From NCBI GenBank assembly GCA_041650375.1, contig JBAZLH010000004.1, positions 1-32,000 of the forward strand: a stretch of DNA of 32,000 nt. Reading direction: 5' to 3'. The notes beneath the pieces are model-generated. The model saw nothing but the letters and a program-made list of their open reading frames with translations, did not search any database and had not been told where the DNA came from. Source of the stretch: Minisyncoccota bacterium (lineage in GTDB: Bacteria; Patescibacteriota; Minisyncoccia; Minisyncoccales; Minisyncoccaceae). Made by a program: the position numbers and the translations under genes. Each line of letters starts with the position of its first letter. Positions within the stretch are counted from its first letter, which is position 1. Below, piece after piece: positions 3 to 26,420 of the stretch.

Positions 3-719
3 GTTGCATCAGGCAATTTTTCCTGTGTAGAAACGCCTCAAGAGAAAAGCAGTATGCTTGAAATAACCAGCCAGAGATTAGTCGATAATAGAATTTACTG
101 CGTTAACGTTAAAAACGAGGGAGCTGCAGGGAGCGTTTATTCTTCTTACGTTTATACGACTCCCGTGAGAGGAAAGCTGGTTTTAGTAAGTTTTGTCTTG
201 CGCTATCCAAATTGTACCAATTACGATGAGGAACAGAGTCTGGCCTGCACGAGCGAAAGAGAGGCTTTTGACCTTGATGCAACGGTGGATCGCATAGTCC
301 AAACCGTCAGGTGGGATTTGGCTTCAGATGAAAACACTTTGGCAAGCCAGCTCTCTAAATGTTTAGTATCGAGTTATTCGGGAGATAAAGAGAAATGCGA
401 CGAGCTCTTGAAACAGATTACTGATTTTGACTCATGCGTTATGGCTGGCTTTTCGATATTAAAATCCAATCCAGCCCAGTGCCAAACAATCGACGGAAGA
501 ACATTTGTTCAGGAGACAAATAGCACTTGGGAGCAGGCGCTGTTAGCCGTCAATAACTGTGGAGTTGAAAAAGTCTTTCAAACACACAGCCGACTCGTAA
601 CTCTGACACTAAAAAATGGCAATAAATTAATTGCCAAGGAACCGCAGATAGATGATATAATTACCGCAATTAGGGCTGTAGAATCAAAATGCGGTAAAAT
701 TCCAATAGGAACAGAGTAG
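3..719 (+). CDS. Hypothetical Cys-rich protein, probably 5'-truncated by the window edge
   Basis: The frame is open from nt 3 with no stop before the ATG at 54, so the start may lie upstream. Multiple Cys, no catalytic motif recognised. Confidence 0.5.
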   Translation, partial: VASGNFSCVETPQEKSSMLEITSQRLVDNRIYCVNVKNEGAAGSVYSSYVYTTPVRGKLVLVSFVLRYPNCTNYDEEQSLACTSEREAFDLDATVDRIVQTVRWDLASDENTLASQLSKCLVSSYSGDKEKCDELLKQITDFDSCVMAGFSILKSNPAQCQTIDGRTFVQETNSTWEQALLAVNNCGVEKVFQTHSRLVTLTLKNGNKLIAKEPQIDDIITAIRAVESKCGKIPIGTE

Positions 720-877
720 TAAGTTATTTTAAGTGTTTCCACAGTCAATCAGGCACCAATTAATTAAATAATTTGGCCGCCGCTTCCATTTCATAAGGCT
801 TCCAGCCTTCCAGAATAATGGTTCTAACGGCGTTCAAGGCTTGCAGCAATAAATAAGCCAACGAAAACCGTTATAAA

Positions 878-1240
878 GTGAGATATTGCGCAGAATGCAA
901 AAGGGTAAAATTATTTAATTTTTGTATTTTTTGTTTTAAAAAAACTATTAATGAATTTGTTTTAAAAGCTGGTACTGGTGATTTTAAGTCTACTTTTAAT
1001 AGAACGTCATTTACTCATAAACGCCCTGGGTTCAAAAAATTTCTAAGCAAGGTAATAACTGGATGGATGCCAACAAAAGGAAAAAATAGCAAAAAATATC
1101 CAGAAGGAGTTTTTGTTCATAGGATTATAGATAGAGTAAAAAATTGGTATGAAGAAAAAATTATTGATATGAAAACTGGCGACATAATAGAATCTAAAAA
1201 AGAACCTCTCTCGCAACATAAATCCAAAAAACGGAATTAA
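878..1240 (+). CDS. Hypothetical small Lys-rich protein with N-terminal Cys cluster (CAEC...CIFC)
   Basis: 120-codon ORF with a GTG start, followed by a hairpin terminator at 1282-1310. No family recognised. Confidence 0.35.
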   Translation: MRYCAECKRVKLFNFCIFCFKKTINEFVLKAGTGDFKSTFNRTSFTHKRPGFKKFLSKVITGWMPTKGKNSKKYPEGVFVHRIIDRVKNWYEEKIIDMKTGDIIESKKEPLSQHKSKKRN

Positions 1241-1281
1241 AATTCTTGATTAGTCTATTTAAAACTTTTAGCCTTCAACAA

Positions 1282-1310
1282 AAACCCCATAAGGGTTTGT
1301 TTTTTTGTTT
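1282..1310 (+). terminator. Rho-independent terminator
   Basis: AAACCC(1282-1287)/GGGTTT(1293-1298) stem followed by a T-run. Confidence 0.6.
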
Positions 1311-1438
1311 AAAATTATAATCTTTTCCGTATATTGACAAAATTGAATTATTATATAATAGTATTATTATCCTGGAAACAAATTCTTTAAAAAAGGAGTT
1401 TCTGGACCAGCACTCTTAACAATTCAAAAGGTGATTAA

Positions 1439-2077
1439 ATGAAAAAGAAAAATGTTGCAACTATCCTGCTTATTGCGATAATCGCGATACTCTTGACCAT
1501 CATTTCACTGGCTGGCTGCTCGGATGTCAAAAACGGAGAACGCGCGCAAATGCTGGACACCCAAGGCACACCAACTGTAACAACGTCTAACGAGCGAGCC
1601 ATATTCATGGGTTATCTCAACCAGGTTAATGACCCGAACAATATCCAATGGATTTATTGTTTCAGTTGGGACGGACATCTACTGTTTAAATCGGCCGTAA
1701 TGGGCAAAACTATTTCAGCCACCAAAAGCAGCGAGCCATACGAAAGAGTAGTGGCTACTTCTGACACCTATAGTTGGGAATATAATGCCGCTCAGAGTTT
1801 TGATGGTTTCATTGCCGGAACTCCACAACTGATGAATCCGTCCGGAATGTTTGGACACGACACACCCGGAGTAATCTGGATGGACCCCCAAGGTAATTAT
1901 TACGAATGGCATGAAGGGCCTTACTTTATTTCAAACGTTCCCTTAAAATTTGAGACTCCGGTATTGTCTTACCAAAACATGGATGTGGAAGTTTACAACC
2001 ATGTTAACCTGATTGAAGAAAAATTGAGGCACGGTGAAAAACTCACTGATGAGGACAAAGCATGGCTAAACAAATAA
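1439..2077 (+). CDS. Hypothetical lipoprotein
   Basis: N-terminal signal peptide ending in the lipobox LAGC. AAAGGTG lies upstream of the ATG. Overlaps the next gene by 16 nt. Confidence 0.7.
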   Translation: MKKKNVATILLIAIIAILLTIISLAGCSDVKNGERAQMLDTQGTPTVTTSNERAIFMGYLNQVNDPNNIQWIYCFSWDGHLLFKSAVMGKTISATKSSEPYERVVATSDTYSWEYNAAQSFDGFIAGTPQLMNPSGMFGHDTPGVIWMDPQGNYYEWHEGPYFISNVPLKFETPVLSYQNMDVEVYNHVNLIEEKLRHGEKLTDEDKAWLNK

Positions 2078-2541
2078 CCTTGATTCTAATTGTTATCGCC
2101 CTAATCGGCGTTACAACGCTATCGTGCGGATGCATGGGGTTCTTCTCCGGATATCCGGAAGCGGGCCAGAAAATCACAAGCGCGGATTATTCAGTCGCCC
2201 AGTATAAATTTTTCATTGAGAAACACAACTCTGTGCGGCAAATGGGCTCACAAATCCTTAACGCAGACGAAAGCGTCGCAGCGTTTGAAAAAATGTACCC
2301 AAGCCCATCAACCTGGGACTGGAAAACCAAGGAAATGTACGATGACCGCATCTTTATCCGCAACGGCTATATCCAACAGTACAACAAGTTTGTCAGCGAT
2401 TACAATTCACGGATGCGCGACCTCACAACCAACCAAATGTGGATGAAGCCCCAAAATTTCCCGAGCGAACTTCAACCTTATGTTCCCGGAAGCATAATCA
2501 CGCTCCAAAACAGCCAAGAGTTAATAACTCCCAAACTGTAA
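2062..2541 (+). CDS. Hypothetical membrane-anchored protein, translationally coupled to the lipoprotein
   Basis: N-terminal hydrophobic helix (ITLILIVIALIGVTTLSCGC). 16-nt overlap with the upstream gene. Confidence 0.6.
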   Translation: MAKQITLILIVIALIGVTTLSCGCMGFFSGYPEAGQKITSADYSVAQYKFFIEKHNSVRQMGSQILNADESVAAFEKMYPSPSTWDWKTKEMYDDRIFIRNGYIQQYNKFVSDYNSRMRDLTTNQMWMKPQNFPSELQPYVPGSIITLQNSQELITPKL

Positions 2542-2696
2542 AACATTTTCCTTTTTTACGATAAATCACTAAACCAAATATAAGCCATCAGATGATGCGC
2601 TTTTTGTTTTATTTAACCATATTGATTTTTTAGTAAATTATGTTATCGTCCCATTAGAGCTTTAGCTCTCTTACAATTAAAAAAGGATGATTTGCG

Positions 2697-3260
2697 ATGA
2701 CGAACGAAGAATCATTAAAAGAAATAGAAGATGAAGTTCGAACAAAAGCGGAAATAACCCGAAAGGCAAGGAAAACCCTTGCAGACGCCCACAGGGAACT
2801 GAGAGAATCCGTCCATGCCTATAAAGACGCAAGGACAAAAATGCAAAAAGATTCCTGGAAAAACAAAGGGTTAGCCCTCTGTTATGATTGCAGTAAATTG
2901 TATCCCCAAGAAGACATTACCTTGTTCTATATTGAACGGCTTGAAAAACGGGGCAGCCATTATAGGGAAAGAATGGTCTTAATCCGAAAGGTTCAGGGTT
3001 GCTGCCGTTTGCACGCAAACAATTTATTAAACCGCGCGAAAGGCGGCGAAGATAAATTCCAATGTTTTGAAGTGAGGCAAGAAGGCGAAGAATTCTTTAT
3101 TGTTAACGGCCTAAAAACAATTCCAATTCCTTTTCCGAAAGAAACTGCGATTCTGATTGAGTGGGATGGCATACCAGAAAGAGAATTTGAATTCGGCAAG
3201 CAAATTCTATTCAATTCTTCCCATAATGAACTAACAATGGGAGAAGAAAGGATATTGTAA
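2697..3260 (+). CDS. Hypothetical protein (charged helical N-terminus, Cys-containing C-terminal part)
   Basis: 187-codon ORF with AAAAAGGA upstream of the ATG. No family recognised. Confidence 0.55.
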   Translation: MTNEESLKEIEDEVRTKAEITRKARKTLADAHRELRESVHAYKDARTKMQKDSWKNKGLALCYDCSKLYPQEDITLFYIERLEKRGSHYRERMVLIRKVQGCCRLHANNLLNRAKGGEDKFQCFEVRQEGEEFFIVNGLKTIPIPFPKETAILIEWDGIPEREFEFGKQILFNSSHNELTMGEERIL

Positions 3261-3309
3261 ATCCGGCGACAAGATAACATCAAATCGCTTTTTTTATTTT
3301 CTAAAACCA

Positions 3310-3338
3310 TTGGCGTTTTTTTATTTTAGGTATATAAT
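3310..3338 (+). promoter_or_regulatory. Sigma70-like promoter TTGGCG-17-TATAAT
   Basis: -35 at 3310-3315 and -10 at 3333-3338, about 30 nt upstream of the MliC-like gene. Confidence 0.45.
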
Positions 3339-3369
3339 TTAAGCAATAATTAATTATATAAAAACATAT

Positions 3370-3786
3370 ATGAAAATTGAATGGAATAAGCCCACTAAAT
3401 ACTCAATGGTGTTGGCTATTATTGTTTACGTGGCGACTTTTTGGTTGGCTTTTTACTTGGGCTTAAGATGGGGAGAAGCCAATGCGATTATTGACCAATT
3501 TTCGTCCCAACAAAACCAGCAACAAGACCAAGACAAAATTATTAACGCCGTAACTTTTTATTGCGATAACAGTAAAAAAATTGACGCGGTTTTTTACAGC
3601 CGAAAAGTCGCCATCTCTTTGAGCGACGGACGAAGCATGGTGCTTCCGCAAACTATTTCCGGTTCGGGCGCGCGCTACGCCAACGCGGATGAATCTTTCG
3701 TCTTTTGGAATAAAGGCGACACAGCTTTTGTTCAAGAAGGCGCTGCGACAACTTACGAAAATTGCGCCCTCCCTCCCGCGAAATAA
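3370..3786 (+). CDS. Membrane-anchored MliC-family (C-type lysozyme inhibitor) domain protein
   Basis: The C-terminal domain matches the E. coli MliC pattern: YxCD...V.F...ISGSGARYA....FVFWNKGDTA.V.....NC. N-terminal TM helix rather than a lipobox. Confidence 0.8.
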   Translation: MKIEWNKPTKYSMVLAIIVYVATFWLAFYLGLRWGEANAIIDQFSSQQNQQQDQDKIINAVTFYCDNSKKIDAVFYSRKVAISLSDGRSMVLPQTISGSGARYANADESFVFWNKGDTAFVQEGAATTYENCALPPAK

Positions 3787-3810
3787 ATATATTATTTTAA
3801 AACTTAAAAT

Positions 3811-3846
3811 CGCTCCGCCAGCTGGCGGATTAGCGGTTTTTTGTTA
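3811..3846 (+). terminator. Rho-independent terminator
   Basis: CCGCC AGCT GGCGG hairpin with flanking CGCT/AGCG pairing, then a T-run. Confidence 0.7.
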
Positions 3847-3856
3847 TTATAAAACC

Positions 3857-4240
3857 ATGGACATAGAAAACTTTGAAGAACTCGTGCGGGAAGGAATAAA
3901 AGCCATTCCCCAAAAATTCTTGGACTTGCTGGACAATGTTGATATTATCGTGGAAGAAAATCCCACGCCCGAACAATTAAAAAAATTAAAAATTAAAAAT
4001 AATTATTTTCTTTTTGGGTTGTACGAAGGAATCCCCAAAACAGAAAGGTGGGGATATGGCCAAGCTTTGCCGGACAAAATAACAATTTTCAAAAATCCGA
4101 TTGAGCAAACCGCCCAAACAAAAGAAGAAATCAAACAACTTATTAAAGACACTGTTTGGCATGAAATCGCGCATCATTTTGGAATGAATGAAGACAGGGT
4201 AAGGAAAGCCGAAACCCGGCGCAAGCGCCCAATCGGATAA
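3857..4240 (+). CDS. Zincin-like metallopeptidase family protein (DUF1025/Zincin_1 type)
   Basis: HEIAHHFG (HExxH) near the C-terminus plus family-typical LFGLYEGIP...PDKITIF. The ATG at 3857 is preferred because the longer ORF from 3689 overlaps the MliC gene and its terminator. Confidence 0.85.
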   Translation: MDIENFEELVREGIKAIPQKFLDLLDNVDIIVEENPTPEQLKKLKIKNNYFLFGLYEGIPKTERWGYGQALPDKITIFKNPIEQTAQTKEEIKQLIKDTVWHEIAHHFGMNEDRVRKAETRRKRPIG

Positions 4241-4262
4241 AATTACCCAGCCGCGCAGACAA

Positions 4263-4291
4263 TTGACAAATGACATAAATTGTATTATTAT
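4263..4291 (+). promoter_or_regulatory. Sigma70-like promoter TTGACA-17-TATTAT
   Basis: -35 at 4263-4268 and -10 at 4286-4291. The ORF-track ATG at 4280 lies inside it. Confidence 0.6.
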
Positions 4292-4303
4292 ACAGAAGGT
4301 ATC

Positions 4304-4597
4304 ATGCCCGACACTACAGCTACTTTAAATTGCGAGAGCAAAGATTCAAAAGCCATCCCAAAAATCAACATAAAGTCACGCACAGTTAAAATCCCGGAAG
4401 ACAAAAAAGTATTGAGCATAATGGAAATACGCAAGTATTTCCACGTAAGCCCAAAAAGAATTCATGGCTGGATAAAGCAAGGATTAAAAACCGCTCCGGC
4501 TGTGCGAGGAATAAGAATTTATCGAAAAACCCTCAAGGAATATCACGATAAAAGCGGTGAATTCATTATCCTCCCCGAGAAACCAAGTATAGAGTAA
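4304..4597 (+). CDS. Helix-turn-helix DNA-binding protein (excisionase/MerR-like HTH)
   Basis: LSIMEIRKYFHVSPKRIHGWIKQG...IRIYRKTLKEY resembles excisionase-family HTH. Start moved to ATG 4304, downstream of the promoter and GAAGG. Confidence 0.55.
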   Translation: MPDTTATLNCESKDSKAIPKINIKSRTVKIPEDKKVLSIMEIRKYFHVSPKRIHGWIKQGLKTAPAVRGIRIYRKTLKEYHDKSGEFIILPEKPSIE

Positions 4598-4624
4598 AAT
4601 CTATGCTTTTTTTTATTTAATGGC

Positions 4625-4652
4625 TTGACAAACATTTTAATAGATATAAAAT
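4625..4652 (+). promoter_or_regulatory. Sigma70-like promoter TTGACA-16-TAAAAT
   Basis: -35 at 4625-4630 and -10 at 4647-4652. No ORF longer than 10 codons follows. Confidence 0.5.
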
Positions 4653-4658
4653 GATTAT

Positions 4659-4812
4659 AGAACCTTTAACAATATAGAATTTTAAATCCCTATAAACCGG
4701 ACCAAACCAATCCAAACAATCCTCCTAACTAATGCGACTATCCGCTTTATAATAGATTTAAAATTCTCCTCTCCCATATCGGTGATATCTCGCATATCAC
4801 CGTTCTTTTTTT
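4659..4812 (+). ncRNA. Candidate ~150-nt small RNA (promoter-to-terminator unit without an ORF)
   Basis: Bounded by the promoter at 4625-4652 and the terminator GGTGATAT-CTCGC-ATATCACC plus T-run (4781-4812). Contains the CU-rich tracts AATCCTCCTAA and TTCTCCTCTCCC. Confidence 0.3.
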
Positions 4813-4949
4813 AACCCGAGTTAAATAGGATTTTAAATTTTTTAAAATCTCAAATTCCAATCAATGATTAAAATTTATTTAACCGGGCAAGTTTGACTTT
4901 TTTTATTTTTACAATTAACATATTCGTTGTATAGGAGAGTGAACAGAAT

Positions 4950-5060
4950 ATGCAAAACAAGGAACTACCTTCGAGAATAGCAAACAAACTCTTACGCCAG
5001 TACCTTCAAGTGTGGTCATACCAGAGAATTCCTCTCTGCCATCTCCAATGGGTTGGATAA
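4950..5060 (+). CDS. Candidate 36-aa small protein (MQNKELPSRIANKLLRQYLQVWSYQRIPLCHLQWVG)
   Basis: AGGAGAG lies 9 nt upstream of the ATG. TTGACT-17-TAACAT lies upstream and a strong terminator immediately downstream. Below the ORF-track size cutoff. Confidence 0.3.
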   Translation: MQNKELPSRIANKLLRQYLQVWSYQRIPLCHLQWVG

Positions 5061-5076
5061 CAGCACAACCCAAACC

Positions 5077-5112
5077 CCGTGTAAACATTTCATTACACGG
5101 TTTTTTTCTTTT
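5077..5112 (+). terminator. Rho-independent terminator
   Basis: CCGTGTAA(5077-5084)/TTACACGG(5093-5100) stem followed by TTTTTTTCTTTTT. Confidence 0.65.
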
Positions 5113-5163
5113 TGAAAAAATATGGTATTATTCAGGTATCTAAATATTAACTATAAAAATTTT

Positions 5164-5913
5164 ATGAGCAAAAAATTAATTATCGGAAATTGGAAATGCA
5201 ATCCGCTGAAAACAAGCGAGGCTTTAAAAATATTCAACGACATTAAATCCTCGGCTGAAAATTCAAAAACATCGGAAACAATTATTTGCCCTCCGAATAT
5301 TTTTTTAAAAGATTTATTGGCGTTAAAAACAAAAATAAAAATCGGGGCGCAAAATTGTTTTTGGGAAAAACAAGGCGCGTACACCGGAGAAGTGTCTGCC
5401 GGAATGCTCAAAAACATGGGGTGTAAATACGTAATTATTGGCCATTCGGAAAGGAGGAAAATAAATAAAGAAACCAACGAAGAAATAAATAAAAAAATAA
5501 TTTCTGTTTTGGAAAATAAATTAATTCCTATTTTCTGTTTTGGAGAAAATAGGGAAGAACGGGAAAATGAAAAAACCTTTGATGTCTTAAAAAATCAAAT
5601 TCAAGAGGGGATTGATAAAATCGCAAAGCCGGATATAGCGAAAATAATTTTCGCCTATGAACCGATTTGGTCAATCGGCAGCGGTAATTTCGCGGCGCCG
5701 GAACAGATAAAAGAAGTCCGTGATTTTATAATCAGATTATTGTCCCAAAAAATAGGCAAAGAAAATATTGGCAAAATAAAAATTATTTACGGGGGGAGTG
5801 TTAACGCGGAAAATACCCCGTCCTATTTCAACCAGGCTCAAATGGACGGCGTATTGGTTGGCGGCATGTCCTTGAAGCCAATTGAATTTTCCAAAATAAT
5901 CAAATCCGCTTAA
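5164..5913 (+). CDS. tpiA: Triosephosphate isomerase
   Basis: GNWKCN, IIGHSERR, AYEPIWSIGSG and YGGSV motifs. Start set at MSKKLIIGNWK (ATG 5164). Confidence 0.95.
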   Translation: MSKKLIIGNWKCNPLKTSEALKIFNDIKSSAENSKTSETIICPPNIFLKDLLALKTKIKIGAQNCFWEKQGAYTGEVSAGMLKNMGCKYVIIGHSERRKINKETNEEINKKIISVLENKLIPIFCFGENREERENEKTFDVLKNQIQEGIDKIAKPDIAKIIFAYEPIWSIGSGNFAAPEQIKEVRDFIIRLLSQKIGKENIGKIKIIYGGSVNAENTPSYFNQAQMDGVLVGGMSLKPIEFSKIIKSA

Positions 5914-5954
5914 CTAAAAAATCCGCTTGGCAGCGGGGTTCATTTTCATTAACA

Positions 5955-5982
5955 AGAGATTTTGTGTGGAATCTCTTTTTTT
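5955..5982 (+). terminator. Rho-independent terminator of tpiA
   Basis: AGAGATT/AATCTCT stem followed by TTTTTT. Confidence 0.7.
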
Positions 5983-6132
5983 GTGAACTTAGTTCACGTA
6001 CTTGCGGTGCTTTTCTTGTTCCATTAAAGAACAAACAAATTCGTAAATTGAAATAATGGGCAACACCTCCTTGTTAAGTTACTACAAAAATAATATTAAC
6101 AGATTTACAAAAAAATACAACCCCTAATTTCC

Positions 6133-6683
6133 TTAAATTAAAACGAGGCATTCTTCCAAAGATAAATTGAAAGAATGCCCCATGGTTACGCGCCGAATAG
6201 TTCGGCTTACTCATTTGGGCAATTTTGTATTGGCTCCAGGTACGATCCGCCTTCGCTGGCTAAGATTTCTGTGAGCAAATACGACTTAACTGAACTCGAA
6301 CGCCCTTCGATACAACACCGCAAAATGCGGTTGAAGATAATGCTTTGGGAAGCATTGAAACCTCTTTTTATTGTTCATTAACGATACGGCTCTACAGAGC
6401 GAGGGCAATGTGATTTAATTTCCTCTGGTAACGGTTGAGTTAGGCAATCACTACGCCCGTAAGCATTGCAAATGAGAGTCTCTTGGACATTTTGACCTTC
6501 CATCAAAGATGGAACAGGCTACCGATTTTATTCGCAATGATGCGGATACTTTGTTAACAGGGCGAAACCCCGCAAACAACAAAGTCCTCAATACCACACT
6601 ACCGCTTGCATGCCGGAAGTGCTTATGACGAAGATACACTCTCCATTCATAACGGAACACTGACCATGTCGGCCGAAGTTACT
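6133..6683 (-). ncRNA. Candidate ~540-nt structured non-coding RNA, class not recognised
   Basis: No credible ORF. More GC-rich by eye than the flanking spacers. Minus-strand promoter at 6690-6718 and minus-strand terminator (GGCATTCTT 6147-6155 / AAGAATGCC 6171-6179, then a U-rich tract). Many local hairpins. Confidence 0.4.
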
Positions 6684-6689
6684 ACTTTC

Positions 6690-6718
6690 TTTATATTATA
6701 TTTATTGCTTTAAGGCAA
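6690..6718 (-). promoter_or_regulatory. Sigma70-like promoter TTGCCT-17-TATAAA
   Basis: -35 at 6713-6718 and -10 at 6690-6695, read on the minus strand, directly after the terminator at 6722-6759. Confidence 0.45.
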
Positions 6719-6721
6719 GCA

Positions 6722-6759
6722 TAAAAAAATAAGAACGCCGGACTTAATAAAATCCGGCG
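6722..6759 (-). terminator. Rho-independent terminator
   Basis: CGCCGGA(6736-6742)/TCCGGCG(6753-6759) stem. On the minus strand it is followed by TTCTTATTTTTTT. Confidence 0.7.
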
Positions 6760-6819
6760 CGATGACTTCCCTCAACTTAACAGCCAATTAATGCATCGCA
6801 ACGCATGGTATAACCTCCC

Positions 6820-6955
6820 GAACAAAAGTTCTATTTTATTTATACTATATTTCCATATAAAAAAATAGGGGCATCTCCTTTTAAGAAAATACCCGTTGTG
6901 TGCCCAATCAGACTACTCACAGTTTTGCGAACCAAAAGGTTCTATTTTATTTATA
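6820..6955. repeat. Two copies of a ~25-nt motif GAAC(C)AAAAG(G)TTCTATTTTATTTATA
   Basis: Copies at 6820-6844 and 6929-6955. The plus strand reads hairpin plus T-rich tail. The minus strand reads a TATAAATAAAAT box followed by a hairpin. Confidence 0.6.
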
Positions 6956-7011
6956 ACTCTTTTTGAAATAAAAAACAATCCACAATTTTAATTGAGCTGT
7001 ACAGTTTTATT

Positions 7012-7971
7012 TTAATTTTTTAAATCTTTGCCGCTATGGAATTGCCTGTGAATATCTCCCAATTTCTTATTCGTGACATGGGTATAGATTTGGGTGGTGG
7101 CAATATTCCTGTGCCCTAAAAATTCTTGAATAATCCTAATATCCACGCCCTGGTTTAGCAAGTCCGTGGCCATGCTGTGCCGTAAAGTATGCGGCGTGGT
7201 AAAATACGGTATATTTGCCAAAGTGGCGTATTTCTTCACGATTCTTTCCATAGAACGAGCCGTTAAACGGCCTCCTGAGCCCATTCTGGTCCGATAATGA
7301 GTAAAGAGAGCTTTGTCCGTGTCAGAGCGGCTTTTAAGGTACTTTTTAAGCCATTCCAGGGCTCGTTCCGAGAAATAAACCGTCCTGGGATGATTGCCTT
7401 TACCTATAACCCCTAATTCCAAATCTTTCTTATTTTCTATGTTTTTAAACTGCTCCAAATTAAGGGCTTCCAGCTCGGCAATCCTTAAACCCGTGGAAAA
7501 AAGCACTTCCAAAATGGCCCGGTCCCGCAGCCCATCCTTGGTTTCAATATTGGGCGCCAAGAGCAGTTTTTGGATTTGCTCCAAGCTTAAAAACTTTACG
7601 GTATTTTCTTTGCGCGCATCTTTAGGTAATTGGATTTTATCCGCGGGCAAAGAAATAATATCTTTATCTGTAAAAAAACTCAAAAGAGACCTCAAGGCTA
7701 TTAAATAATAATTTTGGGTCAGCTTGGATAAAACCTTGTTGGTTTTCGGGTCTTTAAAACGCGCCAGGAACAATCGATAGGCCCAAATGTCCTCCGGGGT
7801 CAATTCATGCGGCAACAAGGCCTCTTTACGGACTGATTTGAGCCATTGGTTAAACTTGTTGAGATAACGCCCATAGTTCTTTTGGGTATTATCAGACAGG
7901 CCTTTTTCAATTTCGCAATAATCCAGGAAATCCGGAATATGCCTTAAAATGGGTTTATCGGATTTGGTCAT
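7012..7971 (-). CDS. Tyrosine site-specific recombinase, XerC/XerD family
   Basis: N-terminal SAM-like domain. Catalytic-domain motifs GLRIAEL, GKGNHPR, HTLRHSMAT and LGHRNIATTQIYTHV (R..HxxR..Y). Confidence 0.9.
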   Translation of the reverse strand: MTKSDKPILRHIPDFLDYCEIEKGLSDNTQKNYGRYLNKFNQWLKSVRKEALLPHELTPEDIWAYRLFLARFKDPKTNKVLSKLTQNYYLIALRSLLSFFTDKDIISLPADKIQLPKDARKENTVKFLSLEQIQKLLLAPNIETKDGLRDRAILEVLFSTGLRIAELEALNLEQFKNIENKKDLELGVIGKGNHPRTVYFSERALEWLKKYLKSRSDTDKALFTHYRTRMGSGGRLTARSMERIVKKYATLANIPYFTTPHTLRHSMATDLLNQGVDIRIIQEFLGHRNIATTQIYTHVTNKKLGDIHRQFHSGKDLKN

Positions 7972-8188
7972 TTTAGAGGTTTAATACAATTATAAATATA
8001 AGCGGGGAATTATATATTTAAAAATATATTTATTTTTTATTTTTATTATTTATTATTTTATTTTACACAAATAAGCACACTCTTTGAAAAAACGAAAAAA
8101 TCAACGGGGGAGGAGTCATTTACGCAGATACGGCACAAACACGCTCTCCAATGTCGCTTAACCTACATTGTCCGACATTTATACTCTA

Positions 8189-8217
8189 ATAATATCCAAG
8201 CCTATAAAGCTTGTCAA
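8189..8217 (-). promoter_or_regulatory. Sigma70-like promoter TTGACA-17-TATTAT
   Basis: -35 at 8212-8217 and -10 at 8189-8194 on the minus strand, about 210 nt upstream of the recombinase ATG. Confidence 0.55.
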
Positions 8218-8300
8218 GCATTCTTCCCTTGCACAATAATGCCTTTCTTTTTAATTGTAAAATAAAAAAAGAAGGAAATAATTGTTTTCTTTTTAAGAAA

Positions 8301-8852
8301 TTAATCATTTCCCTCCTGGATGGCGTCCGCGGTGATGCCAACCTTAGATTTCTCGCATGCGTCTTCCCACGCATGCATCATGGGTTTGTAGTATTCCGGG
8401 TAAGTCCGGAAATTCTCCAAAACGTTTAAGCCTAAGCCAAATTCTCTGGAAGCGACAAGGCGAGTAATCGCCGTGGACATTTCCGCGGGATTATATCTTC
8501 CCCGAAGGCAATTGCACATTTCCTGCGGCCAATCCAGACAATCAATGAACTGGATAGTGTCCCGAACATTGTCTGTCTTTATTTTTTTTCTAAGCACGTG
8601 CATCCTCTTTGCGGCAAGGATAGCCGCTTTATGCGAATTTGTTTCGCTTATGTGTTTTCCCAATCTATTGTATGGGCGGAACCGTCCAATGTCCGGATCC
8701 GGAACTACAACATGGGGATTACACAACGGTGCTAAGTATCGCCTGGCTGTCGGAACGCCGGCAGACAAGCTTCCACCTGAAATATCTATCAATATATTCC
8801 TCCTGTACTTTGGTCCCTCCCTGTCAACAAAGTCGCGCAACTTCTGATTCAA
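8301..8852 (-). CDS. Hypothetical protein, no family recognised
   Basis: 183-codon ORF, more GC-rich by eye than its surroundings. Only a TTG start is available at the 5' end and there is no obvious SD. Minus-strand promoter TTGACC-17-TATATA at 8883-8911. Confidence 0.5.
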   Translation of the reverse strand: MNQKLRDFVDREGPKYRRNILIDISGGSLSAGVPTARRYLAPLCNPHVVVPDPDIGRFRPYNRLGKHISETNSHKAAILAAKRMHVLRKKIKTDNVRDTIQFIDCLDWPQEMCNCLRGRYNPAEMSTAITRLVASREFGLGLNVLENFRTYPEYYKPMMHAWEDACEKSKVGITADAIQEGND

Positions 8853-8915
8853 TATATTCTATTGACAAAGAACGACAATTATTATATATCATATTTTAAA
8901 TTTTCGGTCAATGTG

Positions 8916-8948
8916 GATAACAAAAAGCGGGCAATTTTTACCCGCTTT
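8916..8948 (-). terminator. Rho-independent terminator of the carboxylase operon
   Basis: AAAGCGGG(8924-8931)/CCCGCTTT(8941-8948) stem. The minus strand reads stem then TTTTTGTT. Confidence 0.7.
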
Positions 8949-8971
8949 CAAGCGCATAATTTAGGTTTTTA

Positions 8972-25499: not shown

Positions 25500-25573
25500 T
25501 GGAGCGAGATACCGGAATCGAACCGGCGTCTTCTGCTTGGGAAGCAGATGTTCTACCACTAGACCAATCTCGC
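25500..25573 (-). tRNA. tRNA-Gly(CCC), CCA encoded
   Basis: Hand-folded cloverleaf: 7-bp acceptor stem, anticodon loop TTCCCAA, T-loop TTCGATT, terminal TCCA. Confidence 0.92.
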
Positions 25574-26341: not shown

Positions 26342-26347
26342 AAATAG

Positions 26348-26420
26348 TGCCCCAAACAGGACTCGAACCTGTGACCTTCAACTTAAAAGGTTGTTGCTCT
26401 ACCAACTGAGCTATTGGGGC
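26348..26420 (-). tRNA. tRNA-Lys(UUU), CCA not encoded
   Basis: Hand-folded cloverleaf: GCCCCAA/TTGGGGC acceptor stem, anticodon loop CTTTTAA, T-arm ACAGG-TTCGAGT-CCTGT, discriminator A. Confidence 0.92.

What the first reader, a model, noticed from the sequence alone, without database searches (positions are those of the whole stretch)
6133..6718. Candidate ~540-nt structured RNA with its own promoter and terminator, not matching the housekeeping RNA classes I could test
No plausible ORF is present; the two ORFs of 68-69 aa are R/C/H-rich and lie on opposite strands. The region is visibly more GC-rich than the flanking spacers. On the minus strand it is bounded by TTGCCT-17-TATAAA and by a 9-bp-stem terminator. 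It is full of local helices, given here in plus-strand coordinates: 6192-6206 GCCGAA/TTCGGC, 6296-6310 TCGAA/TTCGA, 6317-6331 ACCGC/GCGGT, 6339-6356 AATGCT/AGCATT, 6498-6514 TTCCATC/GATGGAA and 6549-6584 CTTTGTT/AACAAAG. I looked for the RNase P motifs GAGGAAAGUCC and GGCUUA, a tmRNA tRNA-like end with a tag ORF, an SRP GGAA-tetraloop domain IV and a paired group II domain V. None is present in a correct arrangement. It could be a divergent RNase P or tmRNA, or a large ncRNA of unknown class. It sits directly downstream of a tyrosine recombinase.
Basis: partly seen in the sequence, partly recalled or inferred. Interest (0 to 1): 0.68.

Follow-up and report, generated by a model that had tools for sequence, protein, structure and literature searches.

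The report
Structured small transcript carrying micro-ORFs
The flagged stretch is probably a real, self-contained ~545-base transcript, but it looks less like a new housekeeping RNA than like a fast-evolving, folded small messenger that hides the ribosome-binding site of a tiny hydrophobic peptide gene.

Summary
The sequence features are real. On the minus strand there is TTGCCT-17-TATAAA (6718-6690), a transcript of about 545 nt (about 6685 to 6140), a 17-bp terminator, all six named helices, raised GC and no long ORF. No Rfam family, tRNA/tmRNA finder, Pfam model or protein database explains it. It is not RNase P, tmRNA, SRP, 6S, OLE, ROOL, GOLLD, HEARO, raiA or an intron.

The window comes from a CPR bacterium (Minisyncoccales). 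The feature lies in a hypervariable spacer (45-2657 nt) between convergent xer and tpiA. In relatives this spacer holds tandem short transcription units. Each has a similar promoter, a terminator and Shine-Dalgarno-led ORFs of 8-21 hydrophobic codons.

The only clear orthologue is L186 (nhmmer E=9e-12). It shares a structured leader, a hairpin that pairs the Shine-Dalgarno of a 16-codon ORF (window: MSKRLSFAMLTGVVIA), and a 3' hairpin. Eight base pairs change on both sides and stay paired. The window copy adds a 58-nt insertion and a unique 200-nt tail.

Best reading (about 0.5): a structure-gated micro-ORF mRNA or dual-function RNA. A purely noncoding RNA remains possible (about 0.25). This is a new family of a known general kind, of moderate interest.

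The parts
6713..6718 (-). -35 box TTGCCT of the transcript (called W below)
   Evidence: Read directly from the sequence. TTGnnn sits at the same distance in the units of L003, L006 and L010.
6690..6695 (-). -10 box TATAAA, 17 nt downstream of the -35 box and part of the conserved TATAAAGAA(A/G) box
   Evidence: The consensus scan missed it because it requires T at the sixth position of the -10 hexamer.
6662..6685 (-). Inferred 5' end GUAGUAACUU plus the first hairpin GGCC-GACAU-GGUC
   Evidence: The same 10-mer begins the neighbouring small-protein mRNA at 6085-6076 (repeat D3). The hairpin changes on both sides in L010, L006u1 and L186u3 (GAUCC/GGAUC, UAGCCC/GGGUUA, UAACUC/GAGUUA). The transcription start is inferred, not measured.
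6588..6650 (-). ORF-L, MNGECIFVISTSGMQAVVWY*, inside a ~58-nt insertion that the orthologues lack. IFVI at residues 6-9 is the same as in the ErmC leader peptide.
   Evidence: It has no Shine-Dalgarno, and its AUG is predicted paired with P about 1.0. Translation is doubtful.
6533..6589 (-). Conserved leader core: GAGG, a 9-bp helix ACUUUGUUG/UAACAAAGU enclosing a small hairpin, then hairpin CGCA-UCAU-UGCG
   Evidence: Homologous to L186:4263-4320. nhmmer E=9e-12 for W nt 79-347. Pairs are kept through one-sided and two-sided changes.
6496..6518 (-). Hairpin CCUGUUCCAUC-UUU-GAUGGAAGG, which pairs the Shine-Dalgarno GGAAGG (6501-6496)
   Evidence: Four pairs change on both sides against L186u3 (CCGUUUGGC/GCCAAAGG). 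The Shine-Dalgarno is paired with P about 0.91 in W and 0.67-1.0 in six related units.
6440..6490 (-). sORF-A, 16 codons, MSKRLSFAMLTGVVIA*
   Evidence: The same position and length occur in L186u3 (MKKISVVLAVEGCALA), L186u2 (MTKRLSLVLLEGSEDA) and L006u2 (MSCDLIVLCEVGSASA). L010 has 17 aa (MTCRSTIIVALVGCALA). Translation is inferred.
6382..6400 (-). 3' module: hairpin GCUC-UGUA-GAGC followed by CGUAUCG
   Evidence: The stem changes on both sides: GUCC/GGAC in L186u3, GCUCC/GGAGC in L006u2, GCAC/GUGC in type-2 units. Each is followed by GGUACCG / CGUACAG.
6260..6366 (-). Species-specific 3' extension holding Shine-Dalgarno AAGAGG and sORF-B (31 codons, MLPKALSSTAFCGVVSKGVRVQLSRICSQKS*)
   Evidence: No nucleotide homologue in any fetched locus. 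No Pfam or NCBIfam hit.
6140..6183 (-). Intrinsic terminator: 17-bp stem GGGGCAUUC.../...GAAUGCCUC plus a U tract
   Evidence: Terminators with the same GGCAUUC stem close the units of L186, L010, L006 and L004.
6723..6832 (-). Neighbouring unit B: 5' hairpin GAAC-UUUU-GUUC, Shine-Dalgarno GGGAGG, ORF MRCDALIGC* (6806-6777), terminator
   Evidence: The architecture matches L186u4 (MVVALAML) and L004 (MVALL).
6859..6943 (-). Neighbouring unit A: the same kind of 5' hairpin, no ORF found, own terminator
5989..6072 (-). Last unit of the array: perfect Shine-Dalgarno AAGGAGGUG plus a conserved small basic protein, read from an AUU codon (IISIYEFVCSLMEQEKHRKYVN*)
   Evidence: The region is conserved in 20 or more loci. 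Peptides are listed. The AUU start is inferred.

Best explanation
The interval is one transcription unit, called W here (minus strand, about 6685 to 6140). It is the largest of four tandem units that fill the spacer between a XerC/D-like recombinase gene and the convergent tpiA gene in a Minisyncoccales (CPR) genome.

I read W as a structured small mRNA, possibly with an RNA function as well.
- Its conserved core (6589-6382) is a folded leader.
- The last hairpin of the leader base-pairs the Shine-Dalgarno of a 16-codon ORF. That ORF encodes a hydrophobic peptide resembling a signal peptide (MSKRLSFAMLTGVVIA).
- A conserved short hairpin follows the ORF.
- Translation would therefore be off in the folded RNA. 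It would need the hairpin to be opened by temperature, processing, a partner RNA or a passing ribosome.
- The window copy has two lineage-specific additions: a 58-nt insertion (ORF-L) and a 200-nt tail with a second Shine-Dalgarno-led 31-codon ORF.

Shown: the promoter, terminator and helices; one orthologue with compensatory changes; a recurrent Shine-Dalgarno/AUG/16-codon arrangement; and predicted pairing of the Shine-Dalgarno.

Inferred: transcription, translation, the gating mechanism and what the peptide does.
For: - No known RNA family or protein explains the region.
- The promoter box TATAAAGAA(A/G) and the GGCAUUC-type terminators recur at homologous units in relatives.
- W nt 79-347 matches L186:4246-4505 with nhmmer E=9e-12. 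A model built from the pair finds only these two.
- RNAalifold on W and L186u3 gives 41 pairs. None is broken and 8 are compensatory, 4 of them in the Shine-Dalgarno hairpin. Slid controls give 0-1.
- The Shine-Dalgarno is predicted paired with P=0.91 in W and 0.67-1.0 in six related units, against 0.58-0.63 averaged over each whole RNA.
- Shine-Dalgarno + AUG + 16 codons + stop sits at the same place in W, L186u3, L186u2 and L006u2, and with 17 codons in L010. Every peptide is polar or basic at the start, then hydrophobic, with Gly at position 12-13 and a terminal Ala.
- 57 distinct xer-tpiA spacers were examined. Most carry Shine-Dalgarno-led ORFs of 8-21 hydrophobic codons, for example MKKLGIMVIAIAMLVVGFAMA.
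- In the better-sampled sister family ('type 2'), the micro-ORFs behave as coding sequence. sORF2 lengths are 54, 60, 63 and 66 nt, all multiples of three. Differences by codon position are 30/24/103.
Against: - There is only one orthologue of the core, so covariation rests on two sequences. The structure tested was also derived from those two sequences.
- The peptide is poorly conserved, with about 3 of 16 residues identical between W and L186u3. The leader is better conserved than the ORF. That pattern also fits an RNA whose 'Shine-Dalgarno' and 'AUG' are purely structural.
- Sixteen residues is short for a membrane-spanning peptide.
- GGAAGG is an imperfect Shine-Dalgarno. Most ordinary genes in the window show none at all, so it is uncertain how much this organism uses them.
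- Folding energy is only modestly below shuffles and is not strand-specific.
- No expression data were available.
- Nothing identifies the signal that would open the hairpin.
Confidence: 0.5

Rival explanations
1. W is a genuinely noncoding, structured RNA (a lineage-specific sRNA or large ncRNA). On this view the purine-rich 'Shine-Dalgarno' and the AUG are helix and loop residues, and the short ORFs are incidental.
For: - Helices are conserved with compensatory changes while the putative peptide is not.
- Parts of the leader are invariant between W and L186u3 (for example CAAAGUAUCCGCAUCA), whereas the ORF has diverged.
- Ordinary genes in the window mostly lack a Shine-Dalgarno.
- GC is raised, as is typical of structured RNA in AT-rich genomes.
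Against: - The AUG, the 16-codon length and the stop are kept across five units that otherwise share little sequence.
- All the peptides have the same pattern of a charged start followed by a hydrophobic run.
- The related type-2 micro-ORFs show third-position bias and only in-frame length changes.
- Conservation is far narrower than for any known large ncRNA class, and no Rfam hit was found.
Confidence: 0.25
2. W is the toxin mRNA of a type I toxin-antitoxin-like module. It would be a stable, folded, translationally inert mRNA for a small hydrophobic membrane peptide, kept silent by a small RNA.
For: - The peptide is small, hydrophobic and starts with charged residues. The Shine-Dalgarno is sequestered in a highly folded mRNA. 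The units occur in tandem, vary in copy number and evolve fast at a chromosomal hot spot.
- The neighbouring unit A has no ORF and could be an sRNA.
- From general knowledge, ibs/sib, ldr/rdl, hok/sok and aapA/isoA share these traits.
Against: - No antisense promoter or terminator was found opposite W or opposite the units of L186 and L008.
- No extended complementarity links units A or B to W. The best inverted repeat is 12 nt at 83%, and the duplex energy z-score is only -2.0.
- Peptides of 8-17 residues are shorter than known type I toxins.
Confidence: 0.1
3. W is a drug- or stress-sensing attenuator of the erm-leader type. A ribosome arrested on ORF-L (IFVI at codons 6-9, as in ErmCL) would remodel the RNA and expose the Shine-Dalgarno of sORF-A.
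For: - ORF-L reads M-N-G-E-C-I-F-V-I-S-T. The stalled ErmCL peptide is MGIFSIFVI, with Ile9 in the P site (PMC5915450, PMC5499644). That Ser-Thr follows in ErmCL is from memory.
- M....IFVI occurs twice among 35,417 Met positions in the six-frame translations of all fetched loci. IFVIST occurs once, and that one is W.
- Type-2 units keep an 8-9-codon ORF ending in [VI]-A-[LF]-[VI], close to the ErmAL1 motif IAVV (from memory), upstream of a second ORF with a masked Shine-Dalgarno.
Against: - ORF-L has no Shine-Dalgarno, and its AUG is predicted paired with P about 1.0.
- Freeing the footprint of a ribosome stalled at codon 9 leaves the sORF-A Shine-Dalgarno paired (0.41-1.0 per base).
- ORF-L lies in an insertion absent from L186u3, L010 and L006u1.
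- No resistance gene lies downstream.
Confidence: 0.05
4. W is largely non-functional: a transcribed by-product of duplication, insertion and decay in a recombination-prone spacer.
For: - Spacer length ranges from 45 to 2657 nt among relatives.
- The closest species carry a different unit at this place.
- The 58-nt insertion and the 200-nt tail have no homologue anywhere searched.
- No protein homologues exist.
Against: - The promoter and a strong terminator are intact.
- The core is conserved with compensatory pair changes at 87% Xer identity.
- GC is raised relative to the neutral flanks.
Confidence: 0.1
5. W is a divergent RNase P RNA, tmRNA, SRP RNA, 6S RNA or a known large ncRNA or intron.
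For: Only its size, its independent promoter and terminator, and its helices.
Against: - No Rfam hit at gathering score, or at E<=10, on either strand.
- No hit in the orthologous spacer or in 13 related loci.
- ARAGORN finds no tmRNA.
- The element is absent from most relatives.
Confidence: 0.01

Closest known systems
Type I toxin mRNAs (ibs/sib, ldr/rdl, hok/sok, Helicobacter aapA/isoA). These traits are taken from general knowledge.
   Same: Both are independently transcribed, strongly folded mRNAs of 150-550 nt. The Shine-Dalgarno of a tiny hydrophobic ORF is base-paired. Units occur in tandem, vary in copy number and evolve fast.
   Different: No antisense or partner antitoxin RNA was detected. 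The peptides are shorter, at 8-21 aa. There is no sequence similarity and toxicity is untested.
Dual-function RNAs with an embedded small ORF (S. aureus RNAIII/hld, SgrS/SgrT, SR1/SR1P). General knowledge.
   Same: W is about 0.5 kb with many hairpins, its own promoter and terminator, and a short ORF inside an otherwise structured RNA. The non-ORF part is better conserved than the peptide.
   Different: No target-pairing function is known or predicted for W. There is no homology, and W is confined to a few CPR species.
Leader-peptide translational attenuators of erm genes (ErmCL, ErmAL1)
   Same: A short upstream ORF carries IFVI at codons 6-9 (W), or [VI]A[LV]V (type-2 units), ahead of an ORF whose Shine-Dalgarno is masked (PMC5915450, PMC5499644).
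   Different: ORF-L lacks an accessible start. Simulated stalling does not free the downstream Shine-Dalgarno. The downstream 'gene' is only a 16-codon ORF, and ORF-L is not conserved.
Large bacterial ncRNAs (ROOL, GOLLD, OLE, HEARO, raiA)
   Same: Size, richness in helices, raised GC in an AT-rich genome and absence of a long ORF.
   Different: No covariance-model match. Conservation is limited to two species. The core carries a Shine-Dalgarno-led ORF.

Membership tests
Bacterial RNase P RNA (Rfam RNaseP_bact_a/b) | Covariance-model match covering the P4 strands and the conserved CR-I to CR-V regions | tested here: not met
   No hit at gathering score over the window. No hit at E<=10 on 5850-7050, both strands.
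tmRNA | tRNA-like 5'/3' end pairing with a T arm and a tag reading frame | tested here: not met
   ARAGORN finds only tRNA-Gly and tRNA-Lys. No Rfam tmRNA family hit.
SRP RNA, 6S RNA, OLE, ROOL, GOLLD, HEARO, raiA, group I/II introns | Match to the family covariance model | tested here: not met
   on the window, on the orthologous spacer in L186, and on 13 related loci.
Housekeeping RNA of any kind | Present in all close relatives | tested here: not met
   Species with Xer 87-89% identical carry a different ~290-nt unit at this place. L007 has a 45-nt spacer. A model of the W core finds only W and L186 in 0.74 Mb of related loci.
Protein-coding gene or pseudogene | Homology of any frame to known proteins or domains | tested here: not met
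   Six-frame Pfam scan found nothing. The 68-aa ORF has no homologue among 5.8e9 proteins. The single hit of the 69-aa ORF is a weak per-repeat match (27 bits) inflated by about 25 tandem repeats in the target.
xer-tpiA spacer units, type 1 (defined here) | Position and orientation downstream of xer; TATAAAGAA promoter box; homologous leader; Shine-Dalgarno hairpin; 16-17-codon ORF; 3' hairpin followed by (G/C)GUAyCG; GGCAUUC-type terminator | tested here: met
   (E=9e-12).
Type I toxin-antitoxin | Small hydrophobic toxin ORF on a folded mRNA with a sequestered Shine-Dalgarno | tested here: inconclusive
   The Shine-Dalgarno is paired with P=0.91 and the peptide is hydrophobic. At 16 aa it is shorter than known toxins.
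Type I toxin-antitoxin | Antisense or partially complementary antitoxin sRNA | tested here: not met
   No antisense promoter or terminator. No significant complementarity to the neighbouring units.
Type I toxin-antitoxin | Toxicity of the peptide | not testable with these tools
   Needs expression experiments.
erm-type arrest-leader attenuator | Arrest motif at the right distance from the start codon | tested here: met
   IFVI sits at residues 6-9 of ORF-L, as in ErmCL MGIFSIFVI. The motif is rare by chance.
erm-type arrest-leader attenuator | Translatable leader, with stalling that unmasks the downstream Shine-Dalgarno | tested here: not met
   The leader has no Shine-Dalgarno and its AUG is paired with P about 1.0. 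The downstream Shine-Dalgarno stays paired when the stalled-ribosome footprint is forced open.
Integron cassette array | IntI-type integrase facing away from promoterless cassettes bounded by attC sites | tested here: not met
   The recombinase scores best as XerD/XerC and is co-oriented with the units. Each unit has its own promoter and intrinsic terminator. No repeated recombination-site motif lies between units.

The most novel reading that the evidence does not exclude
W and its relatives may form an undescribed, CPR-specific class of riboregulated micro-peptide units. They are fixed at the xer-adjacent point where genes converge, which looks like a replication terminus. They would encode ORFs that consist of a signal peptide and little else. 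Their Shine-Dalgarno sequences are near-perfect but structurally masked, in a genome whose ordinary genes largely lack a Shine-Dalgarno. Such units could act as sensors or effectors of translational, secretory or host-contact state. Alternatively, W's conserved core could be a new structured ncRNA fold.
Probability: 0.15. Interest if true: 0.65.

Novelty: new variant of a known kind. Interest (0 to 1): 0.4.

Why it matters
If the reading holds, CPR/Patescibacteria genomes keep a dedicated and rapidly diversifying locus of micro-peptide genes under RNA-structure control. These genomes are tiny, and most of their 'intergenic' DNA is left unannotated.

Gene callers and Rfam both miss this locus. 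In a group of obligate episymbionts it would be a candidate source of membrane-active or signalling peptides.

There is also a practical lesson. Long, GC-rich, helix-rich spacers in such genomes should be screened for Shine-Dalgarno-led micro-ORFs before they are filed as new ncRNA classes.

W itself is confined to two sampled species, so on its own it has limited reach.

Tried and rejected
- **Rfam.** Gathering and E<=10 scans of the window, of L186 and of 13 relatives gave nothing relevant.
- **Alternative genetic code.** Stops of all three kinds occur in every frame.
- **Decayed protein gene.** The six-frame Pfam scan was empty. The 68-aa ORF has no homologue. The E=5.7e-24 hit of the 69-aa ORF is an artefact of a tandem-repeat protein.
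- **Phage similarity.** No blastn match was found. Fifty exact 16-mer matches in viral contigs were all chance, since nhmmer finds nothing in them.
- **Sequence searches with W.** Against 160 or more related loci only L186/L187 match. Local alignments without the promoter are not significant.
- **Covariance model of the W/L186 leader.** No further members were found.
- **Paralogues of W in the window.** None.
- **Antitoxin-type partner RNA.** No antisense signals and no convincing duplex with units A or B.
- **erm-like coupling of ORF-L to sORF-A.** Not supported by constrained folding.
- **Integron-like cassettes.** Rejected because the units have promoters and terminators, lack attC-like repeats and sit beside a Xer-type enzyme.
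- **Family searches with the micro-peptides.** Pfam and NCBIfam found nothing.
- **Literature.** Searches for CPR ncRNAs or small proteins at this locus found nothing relevant.
Full report
**1. The observation**

The interval 6133-6718 lies in a 1098-nt spacer. On one side is a tyrosine recombinase gene (7012-7971, minus strand; Phage_integrase plus SAM-like domains). Its best NCBIfam matches are XerD/XerC, below the curated cut-offs. On the other side is the convergent tpiA gene (5122-5913, plus strand).

- No ORF of 70 aa or more is present.
- Every frame carries TAA, TAG and TGA stops, so recoding does not rescue an ORF.
- GC is 0.43-0.445 inside the interval and 0.31-0.35 outside it.
- On the minus strand I read TTGCCT (6718-6713), 17 nt, then TATAAA (6695-6690).
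- The terminator has a 17-bp stem (6183-6143), not 9 bp.
- The minus-strand RNA folds 3.7 sd below dinucleotide shuffles with the terminator and 2.3 sd below without it.
- The plus strand does about as well. Energy alone is therefore weak evidence and does not choose the strand.

**2. What it is not**

- Rfam 15 gives only two tRNAs in the window. On the 1.2-kb region it gives nothing but noise at E<=10.
- ARAGORN finds no tmRNA.
- The six-frame translations hit no Pfam family.
- The 68-aa ORF has no relative among 5.8 billion proteins.
- The 69-aa ORF hit one 1630-aa protein at E=5.7e-24. That protein is a tandem repeat of about 61 aa. Each repeat matches at only 27 bits and 30% identity, so the score is an artefact of summing over repeats.
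- Phage genomes and viral contigs hold nothing related.

**3. Source and context**

- The recombinase is 75-89% identical to more than 100 proteins named as Paceibacterota or Minisyncoccales. The window therefore comes from a CPR/Patescibacteria genome.
- I fetched 80 GTDB loci, 80 metagenome loci and 27 further contigs anchored on this protein.
- The arrangement xer, spacer, convergent tpiA is conserved. The spacer ranges from 45 to 2657 nt in 57 distinct versions.
- In the window, genes on the left run rightward and genes on the right run leftward. The AT skew changes sign at the spacer. This is a convergence point and looks like a replication terminus.

**4. The spacer is an array of short transcription units**

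All of the signals below lie on the xer strand. Nothing comparable lies on the opposite strand.

In the window, on the minus strand, the order is:
- unit A (6943-6859: hairpin, no ORF found, terminator);
- unit B (6832-6723: hairpin GAAC-UUUU-GUUC, GGGAGG, ORF MRCDALIGC*, terminator);
- W, the finding itself;
- a last unit with a perfect AAGGAGGUG and a small basic protein.

Relatives show the same design with different numbers and kinds of units. The promoter box TATAAAGAA(A/G) heads units in L001, L003, L004, L006 (twice) and L010. W and the last unit both start with GUAGUAACUU.

**5. Homologues of W**

- W itself occurs only in two identical contigs.
- The closest species (Xer 87-89% identical) carry an unrelated ~290-nt unit behind the same promoter.
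- One contig, L186 (Xer 87% identical), has a 1474-nt spacer with four units plus the small-protein gene. Its third unit matches W nt 79-347 at E=9e-12.
- L186u3 in turn matches L010 (E=1e-7), and L010 matches L006u1 (E about 1e-3).
- I call these units type 1.
- Compared with them, W carries a ~58-nt insertion after the first hairpin and a ~200-nt extension before the terminator. The extension has no homologue anywhere I searched.
- A covariance model of the shared leader finds only W and L186 in 0.74 Mb of related loci.

**6. Structure**

RNAalifold on W and L186u3 predicts 41 pairs in eight helices. None is broken, 9 change on one side and 8 change on both sides. With the 3' partners slid by 1-3 columns, 0-1 pairs change on both sides and only 39-48% of cells pair. 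Two sequences are few, and the structure was derived from them, so this is supportive rather than proof.

Four of the eight compensatory pairs fall in one hairpin: CCUGUUCCAUC-UUU-GAUGGAAGG in W and CCGUUUGGC-UUU-GCCAAAGG in L186u3. Its 3' arm is the purine-rich box 6 nt upstream of an AUG. In the thermodynamic ensemble this box is paired with P=0.91 in W and 0.67-1.0 in six related units. The averages over the whole RNAs are 0.58-0.63.

**7. Micro-ORFs**

The AUG at 6490 opens a 16-codon ORF, MSKRLSFAMLTGVVIA*.

At the equivalent place:
- L186u3 has MKKISVVLAVEGCALA*.
- L010 has MTCRSTIIVALVGCALA*.
- The type-2 units of L186 and L006 have MTKRLSLVLLEGSEDA* and MSCDLIVLCEVGSASA*.

The length, start, stop, Gly at position 12-13 and terminal Ala are kept. 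The remaining residues vary but stay hydrophobic after a polar or basic start, like a signal peptide with no mature protein.

The better-sampled type-2 family (13 sequences) gives direct evidence that such ORFs are translated.
- sORF2 (MSPSPGYGAL.PVSAIVVR) has lengths of 54, 60, 63 and 66 nt, always in frame, although one member (L095) carries a premature stop codon at codon 8. Differences by codon position are 30/24/103.
- sORF1 (MCCVALVC and variants) keeps [VI]-A-[LF]-[VI] through synonymous codon changes.
- Its Shine-Dalgarno boxes pair with CUCC repeats inside sORF2.

Across the 57 spacers, most carry Shine-Dalgarno-led ORFs of 8-21 hydrophobic codons. In contrast, most ordinary genes of the window have no recognisable Shine-Dalgarno. 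That cuts both ways. The strong boxes of the units may be special translation signals, or they may not be used as such at all.

**8. Mechanism I commit to**

W is a structure-gated micro-ORF mRNA, possibly with an RNA function of its own. In the folded transcript the leader hairpin occludes the Shine-Dalgarno of sORF-A, so translation requires the hairpin to open.

- Shown: the sequence signals, one orthologue, compensatory pairs and the recurrent ORF geometry.
- Inferred: transcription, translation, the trigger and the peptide's role.
- I put this at about 0.5.

The main rival is a purely noncoding RNA (0.25). It is favoured by a leader that is better conserved than the peptide.

A type I toxin reading (0.1) shares the architecture but lacks any detectable partner RNA.

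An erm-like arrest leader is tempting. ORF-L has IFVI at codons 6-9, as in the stalled ErmCL peptide MGIFSIFVI, and the motif is rare by chance. However:
- ORF-L has no accessible start;
- it is not conserved;
- simulated stalling does not free the downstream Shine-Dalgarno.

I give this reading 0.05.

**9. Novelty and verdict**

Nothing in Rfam, Pfam, NCBIfam or the papers I could search describes these units. They are a new family within a known general kind: small structured transcripts carrying micro-ORFs.

W itself is a lineage-specific, enlarged member seen in two species. I rate interest as moderate, at 0.4.

Noticed in passing
L186:3462-3478; also L006, L010, L008, L011-L014, L018, L019, L021, L092 and L189, just after the xer stop codon: A strongly conserved motif, (A/T)AAATGTCGCACAATAT(T/C)A, lies 0-60 nt after the xer stop codon in many relatives. 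It is absent from the window even with 3 mismatches allowed. It could be the Xer target (dif-like) site or an operator. I could not find a convincing dif-type 11-6-11 palindrome in it.
   Followed up: partly
window 5989-6072 (-); L005, L010, L029, L186 and others: A conserved small basic protein of 22-29 aa closes the array in most relatives (for example IISIYEFVCSLMEQEKHRKYVN and MEANIPKILVCLLLTKIEYRRKMISPVWR). It sits behind a perfect AAGGAGGUG. In the window, in L006 and in the L008 clade the only in-frame start at the right distance is AUU. No Pfam or NCBIfam match was found.
   Followed up: partly
L008:6214-6544, L012:6043-6383, L092:4041-4369 and 10 others (alignments A3 and A4): A 'type-2' unit family has two conserved micro-ORFs (MCCVALVC-like, 8-9 aa; MSPSPGYGAL.PVSAIVVR, 17-21 aa) with coding-type substitution patterns. 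Both Shine-Dalgarno boxes pair with CUCC repeats inside the second ORF.
   Followed up: partly
window 1-32000: Genes at 54-5913 are all on the plus strand and genes at 7012-31970 almost all on the minus strand. They converge on the spacer, and the AT skew flips from about +0.13 to about -0.10 there. This fits a replication terminus next to xer.
   Followed up: no
window, upstream regions of 28 long ORFs: Most ordinary genes have A/U-rich upstream regions with no Shine-Dalgarno, whereas the micro-ORF units of the spacer carry near-perfect ones. Some of the start codons used may be mis-assigned.
   Followed up: partly
L003:2790-3140 and L163, L168, L083, L172 (alignment A2): The ~290-nt unit that replaces W in the closest species is almost invariant over its first 130 nt. 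It holds a 8-9-codon ORF (MTIGDGCGN / MVIGDCSN) with an in-frame 3-nt deletion.
   Followed up: partly
window 7972-8971, including ORF 8301-8852 (-): The region between the carboxyltransferase gene and xer is a second variable spacer. Its 183-aa ORF has no Pfam or NCBIfam match, and relatives have differently sized calls there (38-153 aa).
   Followed up: no
L013:748-865: An Rfam LOOT RNA (RF03000, 75.6 bits) lies upstream of xer in one relative. It is unrelated to the finding.
   Followed up: no
window 25500-25573 and 26347-26420 (-): tRNA-Gly(CCC) and tRNA-Lys(UUU) genes.
   Followed up: no
P0122 (1630 aa, from the representative library): A protein made of about 25 tandem repeats of 61 aa gave a spuriously strong phmmer E-value against a 69-aa query, because weak per-repeat scores were summed. 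This is a caution for reading such hits.
   Followed up: yes
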